Of a stretch of 49,764 nt of DNA, positions 5,089 through 41,733 are shown piece after piece. Position 1 is the stretch's first letter, and each line of letters opens with the position of its first letter. The position numbers and the translations under genes were made by a program. Origin of the DNA: a virus (Duplodnaviria > Heunggongvirae > Uroviricota > Caudoviricetes); IMG/VR virus record IMGVR_UViG_643348545_000011. One strand, 5' to 3'. Below the pieces are notes generated by a model that did no database searches, had not been told where the DNA came from, and was given only the letters and a program-made list of their open reading frames with translations.

Positions 5089-6642
5089 TTAAAACTCGAA
5101 GTTCACACCAACGTTCCAGGAGGCATCGCCATCACTGAATGCCACGCCTGCTTTCGCTGCGGTCTGCTCGTTGAAGCGGTAACCCACACCCACCGCCAGT
5201 GCCTGCTGGTCGCTGTAACCACCAACCGCTGCCGTGGCGTTGAATTTACCCACACTGTACGGCTGGAACAGACCTGTCAGGGCCGCAGACTGTGCTGCTG
5301 CTCGTTTCATTTCCTTATGGTTTTCATTAATCTGGCGCTGCTGGCTGTCCAGACGTGCTGAATGTTGCTGCAGCGTACGGGTATTGGCTGCAATCGCCTT
5401 GCTGTTTTTCTCAATGGATTGCGTGTTACGGGTGACACGGCCATCAATGGCACCAACTGCTGCATCAATACGGTCAGTACGACCAGACAGGGCCACCAGA
5501 CCATCGTTAACAGAAATGGTGTTCTTTGCACCTTCTGCACGGGTCAGGGTGCCATCAGAACTCACACCAACCAGTGTGCGGGATTCGACTTTTTCGTTAA
5601 CCTCACTGGTCTTCTGGTCTGTGTATTTTTTCTGCTTCTCTGACTCAACAGTTATACGGGCTTTAACATCATCATAAACTCCACCAACTTTCCGGTTTAA
5701 CTGCCCAACAGTTGCCGCATCACTGTTACGCGTACCATCGCTTAAGCCACCAAGAACACGGGTGCCGTATGTTTTATCGCTTTCGGTTCCGGTTTTATAG
5801 CCAATATAAACTTCGTTATCACGAGTGGTTACAGAATTAGCACCTAATGCAACACTGTTTTTATTTGTTACTGTTGCCTTTGCCCCTAACGCAGTACCTT
5901 CTGTTGCATCTTTATCAACTTTGGCTCGGTTACCTGCTGCCGTGCCATATGTAGCCGTGTAATCAACAAATGCAACGCTTCCCAGGGCTGTAGATGCATT
6001 TGCATAAGCATATGTTCCCACTCCCAGAGCTGTACTTTGTTTACCGTCCGCAGCAGCCCATGAGCCCACTGCTGTTGACGCTTTTTCTGTAGCCCTAGCA
6101 TCGTTACCAACAGCAACGGTGTATTGTTCGCTGGCTACAGCACCTTTACCCAGCGCAGGTTTAAGCGCAACTGTACGGGCTGCTTCAGATGCTGCGTCAA
6201 TATATCCTTTCACCGGGGCGTTAGCCTTGCTGTTCTTATTGACGTCCTTGTTATATGGGCCAGTGTTTTTCTTAGCAAGAATGTTTTTCTCATCAAGAAT
6301 GTACTTAACCATCGTTGACACATCGCCCGCTTTAACTTTGGTGCGTTCCCCGTTATATCCGGTTACGTAAACAGAGCCGTCTTTTTCTATATCTGTAAGT
6401 CCGGGGATGGCGACTTCTTTTTTATTATTATCGATTTTCACAAGTCGAAATGTCGCACTATGTCCACCGTCATTTCTGGACAAGCGATATTGTGTGCCAT
6501 CCGACTGCTTACCAAATGTATAATATTCTTCTGTTGATTCTGCTTTCGTTGATACTGCTTTCGCTTGCGCCGATGCATTACCCGCCAGAAACAATCCCGC
6601 CACTGCGGCAGAAAGAATTGTTTTAGTGAATTTTTTGTTCAT
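5089..6642 (-). CDS. Trimeric autotransporter adhesin, Eib-like (immunoglobulin-binding family) with YadA-type anchor
   Basis: 517-aa ORF; signal peptide MNKKFTKTILSAAVAGLFLAGNASA; long Ala/Thr-rich stalk; C-terminal YadA-like anchor ending ...SWNVGVNFEF; lies immediately beyond the prophage tail fibre genes, as eib genes are known to do. Confidence 0.8.
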   Translation of the reverse strand: MNKKFTKTILSAAVAGLFLAGNASAQAKAVSTKAESTEEYYTFGKQSDGTQYRLSRNDGGHSATFRLVKIDNNKKEVAIPGLTDIEKDGSVYVTGYNGERTKVKAGDVSTMVKYILDEKNILAKKNTGPYNKDVNKNSKANAPVKGYIDAASEAARTVALKPALGKGAVASEQYTVAVGNDARATEKASTAVGSWAAADGKQSTALGVGTYAYANASTALGSVAFVDYTATYGTAAGNRAKVDKDATEGTALGAKATVTNKNSVALGANSVTTRDNEVYIGYKTGTESDKTYGTRVLGGLSDGTRNSDAATVGQLNRKVGGVYDDVKARITVESEKQKKYTDQKTSEVNEKVESRTLVGVSSDGTLTRAEGAKNTISVNDGLVALSGRTDRIDAAVGAIDGRVTRNTQSIEKNSKAIAANTRTLQQHSARLDSQQRQINENHKEMKRAAAQSAALTGLFQPYSVGKFNATAAVGGYSDQQALAVGVGYRFNEQTAAKAGVAFSDGDASWNVGVNFEF

Positions 6643-29176: not shown

Positions 29177-29401
29177 TCAACACACTGGCTGTAATGCAGC
29201 GGATACCATGCGGCATTTAGCGGCATTCATCGTACACTCAACGGTTAGCTCTTCATTCGTGGCATTCACCTGAAAGGTCCGGGAGTGTAATTGCGTACAT
29301 TTACCACTGAACGAACCTTCAACAAGAACACGACCACGCTGCAAAATACGGAACGGAATTGTTCCCTGAAAAGGTTCTACGGTTACCCGTAATTTCTTCA
29401 T
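29177..29401 (-). CDS. Hypothetical small protein downstream of Rz
   Basis: 74-aa ORF whose start overlaps the Rz stop; no recognised motif. Confidence 0.35.
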
Positions 29402-29892
29402 ATATCCTCCGGATAATAAAAAGCCAGCTTAGTGCACTGAGTGCGGATATATTCCTGCGCCCCTTCCAGCTGCTTCTGCATCAGCATCAACCGCTCTCTG
29501 AGAGTGAAATAATCCCGTTCAGCGGTGTCTGCCAGTCGGGGGCCGGTTGCATTATCCACGCCGGAGGTGCCGGTGGCTTCACGCACGGTACCGGGGCAGG
29601 TGGCGTTGATCCGCAGGCGCTTACGACCAGCGGCAACGTCAGCGCGCAGAGTTTCATTTTCAGCTCTCGCATCGGCTAATTCCCTCGAGTATCTGGCATC
29701 AAGTGCAGCAACATCACGCTGGCGCTGCTGCATATCAGTAATGGTTGCATTTGCCTGCTCCAGCTCTCTGGCTTTTTTATCGCGCTGCGCTTTGTAAGTG
29801 ATGGCGTTATCGCGGTAATGATTCAGCCCCAGACTAAGCGCACCACAGGCCACCAGCAGGGCAATGATGACCACGCACAGTACGCGGTTCAT
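29398..29892 (-). CDS. Rz: Spanin inner-membrane subunit Rz
   Basis: 164-aa ORF resembling lambda Rz ([19 protein letters not shown]..., [51 protein letters not shown]). Confidence 0.9.
29487..29657 (-). CDS. Rz1: Spanin outer-membrane lipoprotein Rz1, embedded in the +1 frame of Rz
   Basis: [17 protein letters not shown] lipobox followed by the Pro-rich [27 protein letters not shown], resembling lambda Rz1. Confidence 0.85.
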
Positions 29893-29893
29893 T

Positions 29894-29992
29894 TCACCAC
29901 CAGCGTATCTGACCGATGAAATAACCGGAGGCCATAATCACAAACACCAGCCAGATAAGAATGAACTTCCAGGTGGATAATTTTTCAGCCAT
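29894..29992 (-). CDS. Possible 32-aa single-pass membrane peptide, translationally coupled to Rz (hypothetical)
   Basis: ATG at 29992 preceded by GGGAGA; [32 protein letters not shown]; stop overlaps the Rz start (TGAAATG); below the ORF-track length cut-off. Confidence 0.3.
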
Positions 29993-30066
29993 CACTCGAA
30001 TCTCCCGAATCAGTTTGCTAAAATCAAACACACTTTCTCCTTTGACTTTTCCAGAGTCAGGAAACA

Positions 30067-30110
30067 CAAAACCCCGCTTGCAGCCAACAAACGGGGTTTT
30101 TACTTTTATT
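30067..30110. terminator. Intrinsic terminator-like hairpin between endolysin and Rz
   Basis: AAAACCCCG-(15 nt)-CGGGGTTTT flanked by U-rich runs on both strands. Confidence 0.5.
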
Positions 30111-30190
30111 CACTTAGTTTTTGTCAGTTCGCAGGATTTCGTGTTATCCGTCCGTGTGAGCAAACCGCATTTTTCAGCAAAATATTCTGC

Positions 30191-30724
30191 TTATCTGTCG
30201 ATTCCCCAGCACGCCAGCGCGCTCTCCTGGTCACGACGGAATACCTGACCGTAACAGTTATTTGAGCGAATACGGCAGTCTCTGCCACCGTCCTTAATCC
30301 ACCAGCGAATCGCTTCGCATGCTCCCCTGCGATCACCAGCATTAATTCGTCTGTAAAACGTCGACGGGAAACACTTACCGGGACCAATGTTGTACGGACA
30401 GAATGACGCGATCCCCGCTTTCTGGGGTTCGGTCAGCGGCACTCTGATGTTTTTCTCCACCCACGCCAGCGCCTTATCCCGTTCGATAGCGTTAACCCGG
30501 TCGCATTTTTCCTTCGACAGCTTCATGCCAGGAATCACAGGCTTACCATCCACCCGGGTGGCTCCACGGCAGATGGTCCAGATACCCGCACCATCACGGT
30601 ATGCCGTGGTGTGGTTACCTTCCTTTTCATCCAGAAACTGGTCGAGGATTTCAGGCGCAGAAGCCCCTGCGGCAATCAGCGCCAGAACGACAGCCGACAG
30701 GCCGTATTTGATTTTTGCGTTCAT
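30191..30724 (-). CDS. R: SAR endolysin (T4-lysozyme-like muramidase with N-terminal signal-anchor-release domain)
   Basis: 177-aa ORF; Gly/Ala-rich weak transmembrane N-terminus (GLSAVVLALIAAGASA) followed by a lysozyme-type catalytic region; lysis-cassette position. Confidence 0.85.
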   Translation of the reverse strand: MNAKIKYGLSAVVLALIAAGASAPEILDQFLDEKEGNHTTAYRDGAGIWTICRGATRVDGKPVIPGMKLSKEKCDRVNAIERDKALAWVEKNIRVPLTEPQKAGIASFCPYNIGPGKCFPSTFYRRINAGDRRGACEAIRWWIKDGGRDCRIRSNNCYGQVFRRDQESALACWGIDR

Positions 30725-30835
30725 GGATATTTATCAGGATTTATCGGTTCCGAATCCCTGGATATGTTAAGCCTTCACCCCGCCAGTGGTGGGCACTGGC
30801 CAGGGTATGTCAATCTGATAAACACAGAGGTGACT

Positions 30836-31096
30836 ATGGATTATCCAAATCTACCAAAACAAACTTTTGCTGATTTAATCGCACTCAGGCAAGCAGTCGT
30901 AGCTCTAATCAACGTGTTGCCGGATGAGGAAAAGGAATTAGTTAAAGCAATTCTTAACAGAACTGCCGCCGATTTTTCATCATTCCCACTGACAGATGAC
31001 CTTGCGGACCTTCCTGAATTAATTGCAGCGTCCGCCATTAAGCTTACTGAAGAGATTTACTCTCCTCAAAAGCCTTCACAAAATTCCTGCGAGTAA
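30836..31096 (+). CDS. Hypothetical acidic 86-aa protein, opposite in orientation to the lysis genes
   Basis: ATG at 30836 with AGAGG 5 nt upstream; divergent from R and convergent with the 211-aa gene (3' ends overlap about 50 nt); no recognised domain. Confidence 0.35.
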   Translation: MDYPNLPKQTFADLIALRQAVVALINVLPDEEKELVKAILNRTAADFSSFPLTDDLADLPELIAASAIKLTEEIYSPQKPSQNSCE

Positions 31097-31679
31097 CTTC
31101 AATGCAATAATCGTAAAACGCCGCGAACTGCTCATCGCGGCGTTTTTCTTCAGGCCGCTGAAGATGCTCTTTCAACCGTGAAGCGCAGCTTAGATGCGCC
31201 GCGCGATCAAGAATAGTTTCTTTCATTTCATCTGCTGCAAGCACCTCATTTTTTGTTGGGGTGCTTTTTTTCAATTCAGCGATATAGCACTCCAGTTTTT
31301 CAATGCGTGATTCAATATCATCGTTTTCTGACCGCAATGCCGTCGGTGGCGTCTTCAGAGAACCAGTAATTATTCCCGGTAGTTTTCCTCTGTAGGTTAT
31401 CAACACATCCTGCGCCTCTAAAATTATGGGGCGCTTTTCCGGCGACTGCTCATCCCCTTCACATAAAGCGGCAGCAATATCCATGAAAAACTGCTTCGCC
31501 TGTTTTTTCGCCTCAGCTTCGTAAAATTCCAGCGTGGCACCTTCAGTACGGTCAAGACTAATCGCCACATTTGGCAACAACAGTGACGGATACCCACCAA
31601 TTTCCAGTGCCACAGTAACAGTAATCTTATCCGGGTAATTATTTATCCCTTTAACAACCAGTTTGTATTGTTTATTCAT
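31044..31679 (-). CDS. Hypothetical 211-aa protein inserted between holin and endolysin
   Basis: Start 4 nt after the holin stop with GGGGAGAG RBS; predicted coiled-coil central region; no family recognised. Confidence 0.6.
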   Translation of the reverse strand: MNKQYKLVVKGINNYPDKITVTVALEIGGYPSLLLPNVAISLDRTEGATLEFYEAEAKKQAKQFFMDIAAALCEGDEQSPEKRPIILEAQDVLITYRGKLPGIITGSLKTPPTALRSENDDIESRIEKLECYIAELKKSTPTKNEVLAADEMKETILDRAAHLSCASRLKEHLQRPEEKRRDEQFAAFYDYCIEVTRRNFVKAFEESKSLQ

Positions 31680-31683
31680 CGCC

Positions 31684-31899
31684 TTACTCTCCCCGCGCTG
31701 CCTTACGACGGTCCTCTCTGATTTTGAAATACAGGTTAGTCAGATATGTCAGCAGACCAAACAGCAGACTCCCCAGCACGCCTATTGCCGCCCACTGAGA
31801 CGGGGAAACCCTGTCCAGCAACTGCAGGAACCAGTAGCCCGTTCCCACCGCTGACGTGGTGTATGACACACCTGTTGTGATTTTTTCCATCTGGTACAT
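31684..31899 (-). CDS. S: Holin, pinholin S21-like class with dual-start motif
   Basis: 71-aa ORF; MYQMEK dual Met start; two hydrophobic segments; C-terminal [20 protein letters not shown]; paired with a SAR endolysin. Confidence 0.9.
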
Positions 31900-31974
31900 A
31901 CCCCGTCTCCCGTACTCGGAAGCTCACAACACCAAAAGGGCCACCAGCTCTTTACTGATGACCCTGACTCACCG

Positions 31975-33843
31975 TTACCGCATTGTGCCCGATTCTGGGT
32001 GTGTGGCTGTCATATCCGTCCCCGGTGACTTCGGCTGGATATCACCATTTCCCGGGGTGACACCTTCCGCCTGTGGTTCCCGGAAGCAGTTTCCGGGGAT
32101 GGGTTCCCGGCTGTGCCCCAAGCAATTTCTTCCAGAAATTGAATCCACTTCTTGCATCCAGANNNNNNNNNNNNNNNNNNNNNNNNNNNNNNNNNNNNNN
32201 NNNNNNNNNNNNNNNNNNNNNNNNNNNNNNNNNNNNNNNNNNNNNNNNNNNNNNNNNNNNNNAGTTCGACACCCTCCGGGTATCTTAAACCGCACGGCAA
32301 TTTCACCTCCCTTACTGAGAAGATTTTTTGCCTCCTCCACCGCAACAGTACGGAACATCTTCCAGGAGGTCAGTTTACCCGGCTGTTTTTCCAGTCGCAG
32401 CGCCTTCCTGCCACTGTCATCCGTCACAGTGCCTTTACCACCGGACGCATTCCACTGCTGCTCTGTCCATACACCACTGCCACTGTTCGCATCATATCCG
32501 GCCACCATTCTTGTTACGGCTTCAGTATGACCGCCTGCAGAAGTACCTGCACCCTGCTGTTGCGTCGGACCCGCAGAGCCAGACTGTGCATCCCCCGTGG
32601 AGGCTGGCGTGGTCGCCAGCGGTGCAGACTGCCCGCTCAGGAACGGCAGCAAACGCCCGGCTCGCACCAGTATCTCTCCTGCCAGCCGATCTGAAACAAT
32701 GCCTCTTCGCGCCCAGGAGCTGAAGTGCGTTTTACGATCGGCTGTCGTCCAGTTACCATTACTGCGTGACGCGGCACCATAGTATCCCGCCGTGATAATG
32801 TCCGGATCTTCTGACGGCTCGTTTGTCGGCACATTCGCACCATGCTCATCCGTCATCAACGGCACAAAGTGAATATTCTGCGCCGCCTTGCCTTTATAGC
32901 CTCCGTAAACCGCCTCATACTGCACTGCATACTTCGCCTTCCAGTCGTACGTGGTGTCACCGCAAATCCACGGGACGCCGGACGTTGTCCCGCCAATACA
33001 CTGGTCTGCAATATCTGCCAGGTCTGCACGGTATTTATTTACCATGGCAAGAAAAAGTGCATTGTGCTCTGCATGTCTCCCCGAACTGACATCTTTTTCC
33101 CCCTGCATCCAGATCACCGACAACAGCACGTTTTTCGGATTTTTCTTCAGGGCTGCACGCGTTCTGCTGACCAGGTCACGATACAACGGTTTATCCACCC
33201 CCCACAGGGAAGAGCCCGCTGTCGCACCCGACGCCTCATTAAACGCGCCCTCTGCTCCCGCAGTAAATCCCGAATCGCCACGTCCACACGGGACAAGAAG
33301 GATCCCCGCACGGGCAGGCATAAACGGCAGCAGTTTTTTGGCCACATGCAGGGCATGCCCCACACAGCCATACTGCCCTTTATTGAGGTCTGCTTTCGGG
33401 TGATTCAGATTACTCACGTCCTGCACATCATGCAGACAATGGTCTGCAGGAATAATGTCGTTATATGCACAGGCCGCACCGCCCGGTGTCACCGTGCTGC
33501 GACGCGCCAGTTGCTTAATACGCGGGTCAGGACGATCATACGTATCCGGCAGCGGCAGCCCCTCGCCAAAAGACATCGAGTTGGACTGCCCGGCCAGCGC
33601 AATGACAAAGTAATATTCCGGTTCGCTGGTGGTGCTGATAACAGCGCCACCATCACCCGACGGTTGCACCACCACCGGTGTGGTGACATCACCTTCCGCC
33701 GCAATGGCCTGCATCAGGGTATAGGGCGTGATGGCCACCGGACTGCCAAATGGCTGCCACCCCTCCTTCAGTTTTTGAGTCAGTCGCTCCGCAAGGTCTG
33801 ACGGCGACGCCGCCCTGACCACGTCATAGTGTTTAAATGTCAT
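31975..33843 (-). CDS. nanS: NanS-p-like sialate O-acetylesterase of Stx-type phages, 3' part interrupted by an assembly gap
   Basis: N-terminus MTFKHYDVVRAASPSDLAERLTQKLKEGWQPFGSPV... followed by an esterase-like region; strong GGGAGG RBS; only 32263-33843 is real sequence, and the reading frame downstream of the N run is unverified. Confidence 0.75.
   Translation of the reverse strand: MTFKHYDVVRAASPSDLAERLTQKLKEGWQPFGSPVAITPYTLMQAIAAEGDVTTPVVVQPSGDGGAVISTTSEPEYYFVIALAGQSNSMSFGEGLPLPDTYDRPDPRIKQLARRSTVTPGGAACAYNDIIPADHCLHDVQDVSNLNHPKADLNKGQYGCVGHALHVAKKLLPFMPARAGILLVPCGRGDSGFTAGAEGAFNEASGATAGSSLWGVDKPLYRDLVSRTRAALKKNPKNVLLSVIWMQGEKDVSSGRHAEHNALFLAMVNKYRADLADIADQCIGGTTSGVPWICGDTTYDWKAKYAVQYEAVYGGYKGKAAQNIHFVPLMTDEHGANVPTNEPSEDPDIITAGYYGAASRSNGNWTTADRKTHFSSWARRGIVSDRLAGEILVRAGRLLPFLSGQSAPLATTPASTGDAQSGSAGPTQQQGAGTSAGGHTEAVTRMVAGYDANSGSGVWTEQQWNASGGKGTVTDDSGRKALRLEKQPGKLTSWKMFRTVAVEEAKNLLSKGGEIAVRFKIPGGCRTXXXXXXXXXXXXXXXXXXXXXXXXXXXXXXXXXXWMQEVDSISGRNCLGHSREPIPGNCFREPQAEGVTPGNGDIQPKSPGTDMTATHPESGTMR
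32163..32262. other. Assembly gap (100 N)
   Basis: Run of 100 n characters in the sequence. Confidence 1.
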
Positions 33844-34037: not shown

Positions 34038-34067
34038 GCCCGCGTCTCCCAGCGCGGGCTTTTTTTG
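34038..34067 (+). terminator. Intrinsic terminator-like hairpin (+ strand orientation)
   Basis: GCCCGCG-tctcccag-CGCGGGC followed by T7. Confidence 0.5.
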
Positions 34068-34411
34068 TCCATAAGAAAGCCCCTCCGGAGAGGGGCTGGA
34101 GAGTGGCGCTATGTGCCATTGCATGGTGCCGGGTGCCTCCCGGTGAGTTCAGTATCAGCACCTGAACCCGCACAGAAAGGATAAGGGTCGGTGACAAAAC
34201 ACCAGTTGCTGATTGCCCCTCCGCACAGGGGGATTCACCATGCCAGTTTCTTTTAACAAACTCCCCGCAAACCAGACAACAGTCAACCGCCTGAATTGTG
34301 AGGTATTTAAAAATTTCAACGGGTAACTGATACCCTGCTAATCGCCTGATGCTTTCTTTTTCAGCAACGGGAAAGCAACAACCACCACACCCACCAGCCG
34401 CCCATTTACCA

Positions 34412-40573: not shown

Positions 40574-41733
40574 TTGCGCCCCCTTACCTCTGAAGGGTTC
40601 AGCGACAAATTTATGAGACTGGCCAGTAGCGCCGCGTCGTTGATGCGGTCATACAGACTTACAGCCAGCGGGGATTCGGCTTTTGCCAACATGGGATAAA
40701 GCTGCTGCAGCCAGACCTGATGAATTGATGAAATGTAGGAATAGAGAACGCTGGCGTTATGTGCAACGTCGCTCAGTACAGAGGGATTTGAAAGCTGTTT
40801 CTCCATCTGGTTAAAGGCATTGATGTATGCCTCTTTGAACTGGGCAGCACGTTTACCCGTGAAACCCATAGCAAGAAACGCAAAGCCGTCGCGGGTTATT
40901 TGATAGCAAGGTAGTTTGCGAGTACCGCCGTTGGGCTGGCGTACCAAAATTGATGTCTCCGCAAAATTGCGGGCACAAAACTCTGGAGAACAATCCAAAA
41001 TGCGGATCTTTTTCAGAACATCGTCATGACGTTTAGAGAAGAAGTCAGCAACAGCCAAAGAAGATGTAACAGCCTGACCATCAACGATGGCAATTTCAGG
41101 TTGAGAGAGGGTTGGGAGAGTAGTCATAGTGACAGCCCCGGTAGTCAGTTTTTTAGAAAACTCACCACATGGGACGCCAATCACAGAGGTGGTGAGACGT
41201 ACAGGGTTGGCGTTACCGGAGACTACCGAACCCGGCCCGACCGAAGTCGGCCCTGTACGCCCCACCATAATTTGGGCGTAGCAATGCTCATGACACGAAA
41301 AAACCGCATGAGCGCGGTTATGCTCAGTAATCAATTTCAGGACGCCAATCCCGGCACCCGCTTTATAAGGTGCAGAGACAGTGTAACGTCCCGAAATGGC
41401 AGAATCAATATGCTGGTGGTCCTTCACACTCAACAAAATCACGCCTGAATTTCCACAAAGGACTAAAGCACTCATGCGGGTAGTCTTTGCGAAGATAGAT
41501 AACGCGCTGTGTTTCTGGCTCCCAACGAATAACATGGACATAAAGCCCTCTTCCGTCACGAAACCAGCGGTTAAGTTCCTGCACAACTCGCCCCCCACAG
41601 TCAGGTAAAGTTCTCTGTGGTTACTTACAGCCAGGTGATTTGGTAATCTGCATTCATGCCGTAACAACAGGTGTTCAGCGACGCTGACCACCAGCTGTTG
41701 CGACAAACGGTTATTTGCCGTTAAACTATTCAT
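40570..41733 (-). CDS. Rha-family phage regulatory protein with unrecognised about 200-aa N-terminal extension
   Basis: 387-aa ORF; residues about 205-330 match the Rha pattern (TSSLAVADFFSKRHDDVLKKIRIL..., ITRDGFAFLAMGFTGKRAAQFKEAYINAF); N-terminal half unrecognised. Confidence 0.65.
   Translation of the reverse strand: MNSLTANNRLSQQLVVSVAEHLLLRHECRLPNHLAVSNHRELYLTVGGELCRNLTAGFVTEEGFMSMLFVGSQKHSALSIFAKTTRMSALVLCGNSGVILLSVKDHQHIDSAISGRYTVSAPYKAGAGIGVLKLITEHNRAHAVFSCHEHCYAQIMVGRTGPTSVGPGSVVSGNANPVRLTTSVIGVPCGEFSKKLTTGAVTMTTLPTLSQPEIAIVDGQAVTSSLAVADFFSKRHDDVLKKIRILDCSPEFCARNFAETSILVRQPNGGTRKLPCYQITRDGFAFLAMGFTGKRAAQFKEAYINAFNQMEKQLSNPSVLSDVAHNASVLYSYISSIHQVWLQQLYPMLAKAESPLAVSLYDRINDAALLASLINLSLNPSEVRGRK

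What the first reader, a model, noticed from the sequence alone, without database searches (positions are those of the whole stretch)
30725..31683. Two-gene insertion splitting the pinholin and SAR-endolysin genes
Between S and R, which are normally contiguous, lie a 211-aa ORF (- strand, starting 4 nt after the holin stop with a strong RBS, so co-expressed with lysis genes) and a convergent acidic 86-aa ORF (+ strand, own RBS, 3' ends overlapping about 50 nt). I recognise neither protein. Late transcription must read antisense through the small gene to reach R. This is the strongest candidate in the window for an uncharacterised accessory module, for example a lysis-timing, superinfection-exclusion or defence/anti-defence pair.
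Basis: partly seen in the sequence, partly recalled or inferred. Interest (0 to 1): 0.6.

Follow-up and report, generated by a model that had tools for sequence, protein, structure and literature searches.

The report
YdfR-family late gene plus reverse moron
Between the holin and lysozyme genes of this E. coli prophage lie a very common gene of unknown function (YdfR/DUF1327 family, whose K-12 relative was recently reported to bind RNase E) and, facing it, a rare small gene that looks like a self-contained add-on; this is an ordinary kind of phage mosaicism, not a new system.

Summary
In detail: holin 31684..31899(-), a 211-aa ORF 31044..31679(-) starting 4 nt after the holin stop, an 86-aa ORF 30836..31096(+) with a GAGGTGA ribosome-binding site, a 53-nt 3' overlap, then lysozyme 30191..30724(-).

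The interpretation needs correcting.
- **The 211-aa protein is not unknown.** It belongs to Pfam DUF1327 / the YdfR family. K-12 Qin has essQ-ydfR-rrrQ, and N-domain DNA is found in 3018 of 5426 complete E. coli genomes. A gene between S and R is therefore the norm here.
- **The only functional data** are that K-12 YdfR binds the catalytic half of RNase E through residues 1-72 and co-purifies RNA (PMC13232886).
- **The 86-aa ORF is a real gene but rare.** It occurs in 317 of 5426 genomes. dN/dS is 0.2-0.3 against relatives at 42-58% identity.
- **It resembles a reverse-oriented moron.** It has low GC and a conserved upstream block. A conserved hairpin plus T-run starts 18 nt after its stop, inside the YdfR gene's tail.
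- **In Salmonella prophages** its homologue sits after the spanin genes, facing a 73-aa gene that shares only the last 36 residues with the window protein.
- **No known function:** no defence-system family, solved structure or fold match for either protein.

The parts
31684..31899 (-). P21-type class II holin (pinholin-like), 71 aa, starting MYQM (Met1 and Met4)
   Evidence: PF04971 E 9e-33 and phrog_9876/phrog_20 'holin'. Annotated 'class II holin family protein' in RefSeq relatives.
31044..31679 (-). YdfR-family (DUF1327) late gene, 211 aa, starting 4 nt after the holin stop
   Evidence: PF07041 at 141 bits against a cut-off of 25. Residues 1-74 are 43% identical to K-12 YdfR. The family is a mosaic of 103-333 aa. 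GC is 44.5% against 53-56% in the flanking lysis genes.
31455..31679 (-). DUF1327 N-domain (aa 1-75; three strands then a helix in the AF2 model), equivalent to the RNase E-binding part of YdfR
   Evidence: AF2 block-mean pLDDT 65-83 over this stretch. DNA of this part is found in 3018 of 5426 complete E. coli genomes. YdfR residues 1-72 carry the RNase E interaction (PMC13232886).
31044..31154 (-). Last 36 codons of the 211-aa ORF (PEEKRRDEQFAAFYDYCIEVTRRNFVKAFEESKSLQ*), encoded antisense to the 3' end and terminator of ORF86
   Evidence: This is the only segment shared with the Salmonella 73-aa gene (42% over 36 aa, E 7e-6). Its stop falls 53 nt inside ORF86 in the 71 of 80 IMG/VR loci where a facing ORF could be delimited.
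30836..31096 (+). ORF86: 86-aa acidic (pI 4.3) protein predicted as three helices; reverse-oriented moron-like gene
   Evidence: phrog_2572 E 4e-50. RefSeq hypothetical protein WP_001625288.1. Distant relatives P0139 and P0140. dN/dS 0.22-0.34. The sense frame out-scores its antisense shadow frame. GC 41.8%, GC3 0.34. AF2 gives three helices at pLDDT 65.
30827..30833 (+). Shine-Dalgarno GAGGTGA of ORF86, 2 nt before the ATG (5 nt from its GAGG core)
   Evidence: Read directly from the sequence. The Salmonella and L087 homologues have TAAGGA in the same place.
30725..30775 (+). Conserved non-coding block between the lysozyme start and ORF86. It holds the direct repeat ATTTATC-N3-ATTTATC (30729..30745) and a weak promoter candidate TTTATC-17 nt-TATGTT (30740..30768).
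   Evidence: The block (measured over 30722..30775) is 70% identical to Salmonella L084 and 91% to L087, while the ORF itself is 66% and 59% identical. It is only a 7-of-12 match to the sigma-70 consensus and was not reported by the scan. Promoter activity is inferred.
31115..31151 (+). Intrinsic-terminator-like hairpin of ORF86 (AAAACGCCGCGA / TCGCGGCGTTTT, 8-nt loop) with the T-run TTTTTCTTC; it coincides with the KRRDEQFAAF codons of the facing gene
   Evidence: Fold of 31090..31165, which also contains the adjacent hairpin 31147..31164: -28.3 kcal/mol, z -4.4. The hairpin is present after ORF86 in the IMG/VR loci, the Salmonella loci and L087, where two base pairs changed on both sides. 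84.5% of cells are paired against 61% or less for slid controls, but the covariation is not significant.
31239..31273 (+). Second terminator-like hairpin on the + strand followed by seven T, inside the segment specific to the 211-aa and longer variants
   Evidence: -19.1 kcal/mol, z -4.5.
30741..30779 (-). Remnant of the C-terminal codons of long YdfR variants (GEGLTYPGIRNR* against ...PGLTYLKVRI*)
   Evidence: Translation. In O157:H7 and O55:H7 genomes the homologous DNA lies inside the 3' end of the 'YdfR family protein' gene.
30191..30724 (-). Lysozyme R (RrrQ/RrrD type) with a hydrophobic N-terminus and no Shine-Dalgarno
   Evidence: PF00959 E 6e-24 and phrog_7 endolysin. KD maximum 1.91 at residues 9-27.
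29398..29892 (-). Rz spanin with embedded Rz1 (29487..29672)
   Evidence: PF03245 E 3.5e-50. The embedded 61-aa ORF contains LVVSAC, read as a lipobox.

Best explanation
The stretch holds two nested accessory elements of different age and frequency. It is not one two-gene system.

**(A) A YdfR-family (DUF1327) gene in the Q-dependent late lysis operon.**
- It sits directly after the pinholin gene.
- Its product is cytoplasmic: a conserved N-domain followed by helical modules that are swapped between variants.
- By homology with K-12 YdfR, the N-domain most likely binds the catalytic half of host RNase E and/or RNA late in infection, and so affects RNA decay rather than acting on the envelope (inferred).

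**(B) ORF86, a reverse-oriented moron.**
- It is a self-contained unit: conserved upstream block, strong ribosome-binding site, 86-codon ORF, and one or two intrinsic terminators.
- Its 3' end and first terminator lie inside the YdfR gene and so encode, on the other strand, the last 36 residues of that protein.
- ORF86 is probably transcribed against the late operon when that operon is silent, in the lysogen or early in infection. It would be shut off by transcriptional interference once Q-modified polymerase reads through (inferred).
- The terminators keep this antisense transcription out of the rest of the YdfR gene and out of the holin gene (inferred).
- The protein is a small acidic helical protein whose target is unknown.

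**Shown:** gene layout, family membership, conservation, purifying selection, hairpins, base composition, distribution.
**Inferred:** promoter activity, timing of expression, RNase E binding by this particular variant, any phenotype.
For: **YdfR-family gene**
- PF07041 at 141 bits; 43% identity to YdfR over residues 1-74.
- K-12 Qin has essQ-ydfR-rrrQ with the same 4-nt spacing after the holin gene.
- 3018 of 5426 genomes carry the N-domain DNA.
- YdfR binds Rne(1-597) in bacterial two-hybrid assays, co-elutes with Rne(1-598), carries DNase-resistant nucleic acid and is not toxic (PMC13232886).

**ORF86**
- It is conserved in 80 IMG/VR loci at a fixed position and present in 317 of 5426 genomes.
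- Distant relatives P0139 and P0140 come from an exhaustive HMMER search.
- dN/dS is 0.22-0.34.
- The sense frame beats the shadow frame in BLOSUM62 score: 167 v 143, 149 v 96 and 207 v 152.
- The hairpin plus T-run is conserved in E. coli, Salmonella and L087. A second hairpin follows.
- GC is 41.8% (ORF86) and 44.5% (YdfR gene) against 53-56% in holin, lysozyme and Rz.
- The upstream block is conserved as well as or better than the ORF.

**Independence of the two parts**
- In Salmonella the ORF86 homologue sits after DUF2514/Rz1 and before the terminase. It faces a 73-aa gene with no DUF1327 domain.
- Homology between that gene and the window protein is limited to the last 36 residues.
- STnc100 at 34067..34272(-) upstream lies on the same strand as the lysis genes.
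Against: - No sigma-70 promoter reaches the scan threshold in front of ORF86. The candidate matches only 7 of 12 positions.
- There are no expression data.
- The covariation support for the hairpin comes from one sequence and is not significant (51 of 500 shuffles reach it).
- A weakened hairpin also exists in long YdfR variants that lack ORF86. It could therefore be a by-product of the KRRDEQFAAF codons.
- Within close E. coli relatives the ORF86 substitution pattern is uninformative.
- ORF86 has lost its ATG in 7 of 80 loci and its 5' end in some Salmonella prophages.
- RNase E binding was shown only for the 103-aa K-12 protein, which is 43% identical. Its overexpression changed few transcripts.
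- The AF2 models are poor (pLDDT 55 and 65). Fold searches gave nothing.
Confidence: 0.5

Rival explanations
1. The two genes form a functional protein pair. ORF86 binds and neutralises (or is regulated by) the C-terminal helical module of the facing late protein, like an antitoxin/toxin or inhibitor/effector pair. The convergent overlap couples their expression.
For: The convergent arrangement is kept in two genera and two different lysis cassettes, with 3' overlaps of 53 and 59 nt. The facing genes share the KRRDE...RNF.K...KS.Q tail. The Salmonella 73-aa gene shows dN/dS of 0.32-0.38 in its unique N-part, so it is a real gene.
Against: The shared tail is exactly the DNA antisense to ORF86's 3' end and terminator, so the co-occurrence is physically forced. 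The overlap region evolves fast in both frames. Some Salmonella prophages keep the 73-aa gene while the ORF86 homologue is 5'-truncated. There is no hit to a known defence-system family. YdfR is not toxic when overexpressed.
Confidence: 0.17
2. One or both proteins regulate lysis itself, for example holin triggering, release of the endolysin from the membrane, or spanin action. That would explain why they always sit inside lysis cassettes.
For: The YdfR gene follows the holin gene by 4 nt in this window and in Qin. The Salmonella 73-aa gene overlaps the spanin stop codon. ORF86 helix 1 is borderline hydrophobic, with KD 1.64. According to PMC13232886, an earlier genetic screen flagged ydfR for envelope integrity.
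Against: Neither protein has a convincing transmembrane segment: ORF86 helix 1 carries conserved Asp, Arg and Gln. ORF86 is on the opposite strand from the lysis operon. Its homologues accompany two unrelated lysis systems, P21 holin with lysozyme and holin_8/holin_3_7 with a GH19 endolysin. By my own recollection, not checked here, the holin and endolysin genes of phage 21 have nothing between them; and not every genome that matches this lysis region carries the DUF1327 N-domain (4170 v 3018 genomes).
Confidence: 0.12
3. What matters is the RNA. The ORF86 transcript acts in cis as an antisense RNA against the 320-nt untranslated spacer of the late mRNA between the YdfR stop and R. This sets the ratio of holin to endolysin/spanin expression, possibly together with host RNases.
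For: Late mRNA must contain the full antisense of ORF86 (layout). Tandem + strand terminators confine the transcript. R lacks a Shine-Dalgarno sequence and lies 319 nt after the previous stop codon. The neighbouring protein family has been linked to RNase E.
Against: ORF86 is under purifying selection at the protein level and has a strong ribosome-binding site, so it is not merely an RNA. There is no Rfam match. In Salmonella the homologue lies after the last lysis gene, where no downstream lysis gene could be regulated.
Confidence: 0.08
4. ORF86 is not the real gene. Either the region is non-coding, or the antisense 'shadow' ORF (30841..31038, - strand, 65 aa), which is co-directional with the late operon, is the one translated.
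For: Third codon positions of the two frames coincide, so codon-position statistics cannot separate them (my reading of the frames). The shadow frame is open in the window, L084 and most of L087. Close relatives give no clear dN/dS signal. ATG is changed to ACG in 7 of 80 loci.
Against: The sense frame scores higher in all three divergent comparisons. The sense ORF has a conserved length of 86-93 aa, a conserved start with a Shine-Dalgarno sequence, and a predicted helical fold. The shadow ORF has inconsistent ends (65 against 115 aa) and a Ser/Ala-rich, low-complexity sequence.
Confidence: 0.05

Closest known systems
YdfR of the E. coli K-12 Qin prophage (Pfam PF07041, DUF1327; NCBI 'YdfR family protein')
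   Same: Same Pfam family at 141 bits. Same position and strand between a P21-type class II holin (essQ) and an RrrQ-type lysozyme, with the same 4-nt spacing after the holin stop. The N-domain is 43% identical over 74 residues.
   Different: The window protein is 211 aa against 103 aa. It carries extra conserved middle and helical segments. It ends inside a convergent gene rather than overlapping the lysozyme start codon (ATGA in Qin). RNase E and RNA binding were shown only for the K-12 protein (PMC13232886).
Morons of lambdoid phages (autonomous promoter-gene-terminator units inserted in late operons; lambda bor, which is opposite to late transcription next to the lysis genes, and HK97 gp15 are examples recalled from my own knowledge)
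   Same: An extra gene lies between genes that are adjacent in relatives. Its orientation is independent of the late operon. It has its own ribosome-binding site and an intrinsic-terminator-like hairpin. GC is lower than in its neighbours. Distribution is patchy, and it occurs at a second site in Salmonella prophages.
   Different: No promoter has been demonstrated. The terminator and 3' end are embedded in the coding sequence of the facing late gene, so the insertion also rewrites that protein's C-terminus. The product is a soluble acidic protein with no signal peptide or lipobox, unlike Bor.
Phage-encoded modulators of RNase E (T7 gp0.7, T4 Srd, phiKZ Dip; recalled from my own knowledge, not tested here)
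   Same: If the YdfR result transfers, this would be a phage protein that contacts host RNase E during lytic growth.
   Different: There is no sequence or fold similarity to any of them. YdfR contacts the N-terminal catalytic half. Its overexpression changed few transcripts, so any effect on RNase E activity is unproven.
Pfam DUF1823 (the label given to ORF86 in the GenBank records of phages PhiR5_1 and PhiR12)
   Same: A weak local match of residues 12-41 to the profile.
   Different: 15.3 bits against a gathering score of 25, E 0.023, covering 30 of 113 profile positions. This does not make it a member.

Membership tests
DUF1327 / YdfR family (PF07041) | Match to the Pfam profile above the gathering score | tested here: met
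   141 bits against a cut-off of 25, E 1.4e-41, profile positions 1-92 of 93. The closest clusters are named 'YdfR family protein' by NCBI.
DUF1327 / YdfR family (PF07041) | Typical context: in a prophage lysis cassette, directly after a class II holin and before the lysozyme | tested here: met
   Window layout; K-12 Qin; O157:H7; L097 and L099.
DUF1327 / YdfR family (PF07041) | Binding to the N-terminal half of RNase E and to RNA, as reported for K-12 YdfR | not testable with these tools
   The only evidence is experimental work on the K-12 protein (PMC13232886). The window N-domain is 43% identical.
Moron (autonomous accessory transcription unit in a phage late operon) | An extra gene between genes that are adjacent in related phages | tested here: met
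   YdfR-type genes abut or nearly abut the lysozyme gene in Qin, O157:H7 and L097, which have no ORF86. ORF86 is present in 317 genomes against 3018 with the YdfR N-domain.
Moron (autonomous accessory transcription unit in a phage late operon) | Own transcription terminator | tested here: met
   A 12-bp GC-rich hairpin at 31115..31146 followed by TTTTTCTTC. The fold of 31090..31165 has z -4.4. The hairpin is conserved in every ORF86 lineage examined. A second hairpin lies at 31239..31266. This is in-silico evidence only, and the covariation is not significant.
Moron (autonomous accessory transcription unit in a phage late operon) | Own promoter | tested here: inconclusive
   No site passes the sigma-70 scan upstream of ORF86. 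The conserved block holds only a 7-of-12 candidate, TTTATC-17 nt-TATGTT. The block is nevertheless conserved as well as or better than the ORF.
Moron (autonomous accessory transcription unit in a phage late operon) | Base composition different from the neighbouring core genes | tested here: met
   GC is 41.8% (GC3 0.34) against 53.2% in the holin, 55.1% in the lysozyme and 55.6% in Rz.
Moron (autonomous accessory transcription unit in a phage late operon) | Expression from the repressed prophage | not testable with these tools
   No transcriptome data could be consulted.
Known anti-phage defence systems, including toxin-antitoxin-type pairs (PADLOC-DB) | Match of either protein to a model of a defence-system component | tested here: not met
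   The only result was a chance-level Cmr5 hit (E 0.018, 13.6 bits) for the 211-aa protein. ORF86 had none.
DUF1823 (PF08853) | Match above the gathering score | tested here: not met
   15.3 bits against 25.
Membrane-embedded lysis regulators (antiholins; the releasin of phage Mu, recalled from my own knowledge) | At least one transmembrane or membrane-anchoring segment | tested here: inconclusive
   A Kyte-Doolittle 19-residue window gives a maximum of 1.18 for the 211-aa protein, so none there. ORF86 helix 1 reaches 1.64, which is borderline, and it contains conserved Asp13, Arg18 and Gln19. No dedicated topology predictor was available.

The most novel reading that the evidence does not exclude
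ORF86, its embedded terminators and the tail of the facing late gene together form a small regulatory or protective switch that has not been described. In this reading a prophage-expressed acidic protein, and/or its convergent transcript, controls a late-expressed RNase E-binding protein or the processing of late lysis mRNA. Alternatively, ORF86 is a new superinfection-exclusion or anti-defence factor that repeatedly lodges at the ends of lysis cassettes. A related prophage carries a Tad2-like gene right after Rz.
Probability: 0.12. Interest if true: 0.65.

Novelty: new member of a known kind. Interest (0 to 1): 0.33.

Why it matters
- **DUF1327/YdfR.** It is one of the commonest unexplained genes in E. 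coli prophages. More than half of complete genomes carry its N-domain DNA, and where context was examined it lies inside the lysis operon. The recent report that K-12 YdfR binds the catalytic half of RNase E gives a concrete, testable idea: temperate lambdoid phages may touch host RNA decay late in infection. The long, modular variants such as this 211-aa one would show which parts are needed.
- **ORF86.** This is a compact example of how a reverse-oriented add-on gene can be wedged into a late operon. Its terminator doubles as coding sequence for the facing gene and rewrites that protein's C-terminus. That is useful for annotation. The '305-aa' YdfR form (L099) may in part be read-through into another convergent insert, and PGAP marks one such YdfR gene as a pseudogene missing its C-terminus.
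- **Overall.** None of this changes current views of phage lysis.

Tried and rejected
- **Solved structures, by sequence.** Nothing for either protein or for the ORF86 alignment.
- **Structure prediction and fold searches.** AF2 gave pLDDT 65 for ORF86 (single sequence) and 55 for the 211-aa protein (38 shallow sequences).
  - Foldseek against the PDB and BFVD gave nothing at E <= 0.001.
  - Faint dsRBD-like hits for the N-domain (E about 1) were not pursued.
- **Curated libraries.** NCBIfam and the defence-system library PADLOC gave no usable hits.
- **Repeat-protein hits.** The exhaustive HMMER search also hit two 975-aa and 1305-aa repeat proteins, P0141 and P0142. I rejected them as helical-repeat noise after reading the sequences.
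- **dN/dS among the 14 close E. coli ORF86 variants.** Too few substitutions to be informative.
- **Species-representative genomes.** A search with the ORF86 alignment found only E. coli.
- **My first view that the facing genes are homologous 'partners'.** I downgraded this when the similarity proved limited to the 36 residues antisense to the ORF86 cassette.
- **Terminator scan.** It missed the main hairpin because the stem extends into the T-run. I found it by reading the sequence and confirmed it by folding.
- **Rfam.** No family in 29300..32100.
- **Literature.** Searches for DUF1327, for ydfR and for the PhiR phages gave one relevant paper.
Full report
**1. Observation**

On the - strand lie:
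- a 71-aa holin at 31684..31899 (PF04971 'P21 holin S', E 9e-33);
- a 211-aa ORF at 31044..31679, whose ATG follows the holin TAA by 4 nt;
- a lysozyme at 30191..30724 (PF00959);
- Rz at 29398..29892 with embedded Rz1.

On the + strand lies an 86-aa ORF at 30836..31096. GAGGTGA (30827..30833) sits 2 nt before its ATG. Its last 53 nt overlap the end of the 211-aa ORF.

The window is a lambdoid prophage whose late genes are on the - strand. The closest annotated relatives show Q, a SASA esterase, DUF1378, DUF826, holin, 'YdfR family protein', 'hypothetical protein', lysozyme, Rz and terminase. An STnc100 RNA match at 34067..34272(-) lies upstream on the same strand.

**2. The 211-aa ORF is a member of a known family**

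It matches Pfam DUF1327 at 141 bits against a cut-off of 25, and several PHROGs of unknown function. NCBI names its closest clusters 'YdfR family protein'.

In E. coli K-12 the Qin prophage has essQ-ydfR-rrrQ-rzpQ. The spacing after the holin gene is the same 4 nt, and ydfR overlaps the rrrQ start by 4 nt. Residues 1-74 of the window protein are 43% identical to YdfR.

N-domain DNA (31455..31679) is found in 3018 of 5426 complete E. coli genomes, at 6410 places. The premise that S and R are normally contiguous therefore does not hold for this cassette type in E. coli.

The family is a striking mosaic, with lengths from 103 to 333 aa. It has a conserved N-domain, a conserved middle segment (EKRPIILEAQ.V.ITY.GKLPG.ITGSLK.PP), optional helical insertions and several alternative C-termini.

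**3. What is known about the family**

Full-text search found essentially one relevant paper. Gopel et al., RNA Biol 2026 (PMC13232886) report the following for K-12 YdfR:
- it was recovered in a bacterial two-hybrid screen and gives signals with RNase E residues 1-597;
- the interaction surface lies within YdfR residues 1-72;
- Rne(1-598) co-elutes with Strep-YdfR;
- the eluate carries DNase-resistant nucleic acid;
- overexpression is not toxic and changes few transcripts.

This is the only experimental lead. It concerns the N-domain, which the window protein shares.

**4. The 86-aa ORF is a real but narrowly distributed gene**

*Distribution.*
- A word-based search found only E. coli proteins at 85% identity or more.
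- The cassette (30725..31043 at 80% coverage or more) is present in 317 of 5426 genomes.
- It occurs in eight phage records, for example PhiR5_1, the PhiR12 phages and 2H10.
- In all 80 IMG/VR loci the ORF lies 111-114 nt from the lysozyme start and points away from it. The DUF1327 gene and the holin lie on the other side wherever the contig reaches.
- Among the 71 loci where a facing ORF could be delimited, the facing YdfR variant is mostly 183 aa (54 loci). It is 211 aa in 4 loci. The overlap is 53 nt in every one.

*Evidence for coding.*
- Close relatives are too similar for a selection test.
- An exhaustive HMMER scan of 1.84 billion representatives found two true distant relatives: P0139 (93 aa, 58% identical over the matched stretch) and P0140 (89 aa, 42%).
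- Against these, dN/dS in the non-overlapping part is 0.22-0.34, with dS above 1.
- The antisense 'shadow' frame shares its wobble positions with ORF86, so codon-position counts cannot separate the two frames.
- The sense frame scores higher in all three divergent comparisons (167 v 143, 149 v 96, 207 v 152). It also has conserved ends and a conserved ribosome-binding site.

*The protein.* It is 9.5 kDa with pI 4.3. AF2 predicts three helices at low confidence (pLDDT 65). It has no match to any solved structure, viral fold or defence-system family. The 'DUF1823' label in some GenBank records is a sub-threshold hit of 15.3 bits against 25.

**5. ORF86 has the anatomy of a reverse-oriented moron**

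- **First hairpin.** Eighteen nt after its stop lies a 12-bp GC-rich hairpin, 31115..31146 (AAAACGCCGCGA-ACTGCTCA-TCGCGGCGTTTT), followed by TCTTC. The fold of 31090..31165, which also includes an adjacent small hairpin, gives -28.3 kcal/mol and z -4.4.
- **Conservation of the hairpin.** A hairpin plus T-run stands at the same place in every ORF86 lineage I examined:
  - E. coli majority type: ...GCGGCGTTTTTTTT;
  - Salmonella: AACGCCGC...GCGGCGTTTCTGTTCT;
  - L087: two pairs changed on both sides (CGCCACC...GGTGGCG), while the peptide encoded on the other strand changed from KRRDEQFAAF to QRHHENGVAF.
- **Formal pair count.** It is only suggestive. 84.5% of cells are paired, against 61% or less for slid controls. 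Both compensatory pairs come from one sequence, and 51 of 500 shuffles reach the observed value.
- **Second hairpin.** A + strand hairpin followed by seven U lies at 31239..31266 (z -4.5).
- **Composition.** GC is 41.8% for ORF86 and 44.5% for the YdfR gene, against 53-56% for holin, lysozyme and Rz.
- **Upstream block.** No promoter passes the consensus scan. However, the 50-nt block at 30725..30775 is 70% identical to the Salmonella locus and 91% to L087, where the ORF itself is 66% and 59% identical. With dS above 1, neutral DNA should no longer align, so the block is probably functional. It contains a weak TTTATC-17 nt-TATGTT candidate whose spacing is kept in Salmonella (TTTATC-17 nt-TATTGT).
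- **Caveat on that block.** The same block also precedes the lysozyme gene in 2209 genomes, most of which lack ORF86. It may therefore serve R, whose start has no Shine-Dalgarno sequence, rather than ORF86.

**6. Are the two genes one module?**

In Salmonella enterica prophages the ORF86 homologue lies elsewhere. It comes after holin_8, holin_3_7, a GH19 endolysin and DUF2514/Rz1, and before the DUF1441 small terminase subunit. It converges on a 73-aa gene that overlaps the spanin stop codon, with a 59-nt 3' overlap.

I first read that 73-aa gene as a conserved 'partner'. Its similarity to the window protein is in fact confined to the last 36 residues (42% identity). With the 183-aa variant only 13 residues align. 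Those 36 codons (31044..31154) are exactly the antisense of ORF86's 3' end plus its terminator. The co-occurrence is therefore physically forced.

The DUF1327 N-domain occurs without ORF86 in most genomes. ORF86 occurs without a DUF1327 domain in Salmonella. Some Salmonella prophages keep the 73-aa gene while the ORF86 homologue has lost its first ten or so codons.

The window still carries, at 30741..30779(-), a remnant (GEGLTYPGIRNR*) of the C-terminus of long YdfR variants. This suggests the ORF86 cassette replaced the roughly 115-aa C-domain seen in the 296-333-aa forms.

At the same site another lineage (L099/L100, the '305-aa' form) has a different convergent 210-233-aa ORF with no family match. 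Another prophage has a Tad2-like gene after Rz. The ends of these lysis cassettes thus look like insertion hot spots.

**7. Most likely mechanism**

- **(A) The YdfR-family protein.** It is made from the Q-dependent late transcript together with the lysis proteins; this is shown by position only. By homology it binds RNase E and/or RNA through its N-domain (inferred). Its helical C-part (helices 122-136, 143-173 and 181-209 in a poor model) may mediate oligomerisation or partner binding (speculative).
- **(B) ORF86.** It is transcribed against the late operon from the conserved block and stops at the embedded terminators. These protect the rest of the YdfR gene and the holin gene from antisense transcription. 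Late Q-modified transcription would read through and occlude the promoter. ORF86 would then be a lysogenic or early product (all inferred).

I put about 0.5 on this combined picture. The anatomy is well supported and the functions are not. The rivals are a true protein pair (0.17), direct lysis regulators (0.12), an antisense-RNA role (0.08), and ORF86 not being the real gene (0.05).

**8. Novelty and interest**

The 211-aa gene is a new length variant of an already catalogued, very common family. ORF86 is an uncharacterised orphan, but it fits a known kind of element, the moron.

A specialist would not be surprised by extra genes in a lambdoid lysis cassette. The modest interest comes from two points: the fresh RNase E lead for DUF1327, and the neat nesting of a terminator inside a convergent coding sequence.

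Interest is 0.33. The most novel reading not excluded is a new regulatory switch or an exclusion/anti-defence factor, at a probability of about 0.12.

Noticed in passing
window 32163..32262 (and ORF 31975..33843 -): A run of exactly 100 N, probably a scaffold gap, makes the '622-aa' ORF a chimera of a SASA-family esterase N-part and a DUF826-like C-part. In NZ_CP196679 the equivalent stretch is about 770 nt longer and holds DUF1378 and DUF826 genes.
   Followed up: partly
window 34067..34272 (-), 41185..41272 (-), 41297..41373 (-): Three Rfam matches above the gathering score. STnc100 (143 bits) lies upstream of the esterase and lysis genes on the same strand. C4 antisense RNA (82 bits) and isrK (59 bits) lie next to each other in the early region, which resembles a P1/P7-type antirepressor control module.
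   Followed up: no
window 29893..30190 (-): The gap between lysozyme and Rz is low in GC (42.6%). It holds a - strand terminator-like hairpin (30062..30100, CCCCG...CGGGG followed by TTTTGTGTTT). It also holds a small ORF, 29894..30067, of 57 aa from GTG or 32 aa from the ATG at 29992, with one strongly hydrophobic segment (KD 2.13). The ORF's stop abuts the Rz start. This may be another small insert in the lysis cassette.
   Followed up: partly
window 30725..30775: The lysozyme gene has no Shine-Dalgarno sequence. Its 5' flank is an AT-rich conserved block with the direct repeat ATTTATC-N3-ATTTATC. The block is found in 2209 of 5426 E. coli genomes. It also lies upstream of the Salmonella ORF86 homologue, where no lysozyme gene follows. 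Its role, as R translation leader or ORF86 promoter/operator, is unresolved.
   Followed up: partly
L099 3167..3868 (-) and L100: In prophages with the '305-aa' YdfR form, a different 210-233-aa ORF converges on the YdfR gene and overlaps its last 250 nt or so. It has no Pfam or PHROG match. The long YdfR tail there may be antisense read-through rather than a real domain.
   Followed up: partly
L097 4592..5113 (+): A Tad2-like (PF11195, Thoeris anti-defence) gene lies directly after Rz in a related prophage that carries a 333-aa YdfR variant. This hints that cassette ends collect anti-defence genes.
   Followed up: no
IMG/VR loci among L003-L082; L093 6164..6415 (-) and L094: ORF86 has ACG in place of its ATG in 7 of 80 IMG/VR loci, all one DNA variant. 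Its Salmonella homologue has lost about 10 N-terminal codons in some prophages, while the facing 73-aa gene stays intact.
   Followed up: partly
L096 10239..10580 (NZ_CP196679.1): RefSeq/PGAP marks the YdfR-family gene next to ORF86 in this 98.5%-identical relative as a pseudogene ('missing C-terminus'). I did not check whether this reflects a real lesion or only the family's variable C-termini.
   Followed up: no
window 31455..31679 (-), model ma9cd0375b4b8: Foldseek gave faint, non-significant local hits of the DUF1327 N-domain to double-stranded-RNA-binding domains (ADAR1 dsRBD3, RNase III; E about 0.7-1). This is worth a look only because YdfR co-purifies RNA.
   Followed up: no
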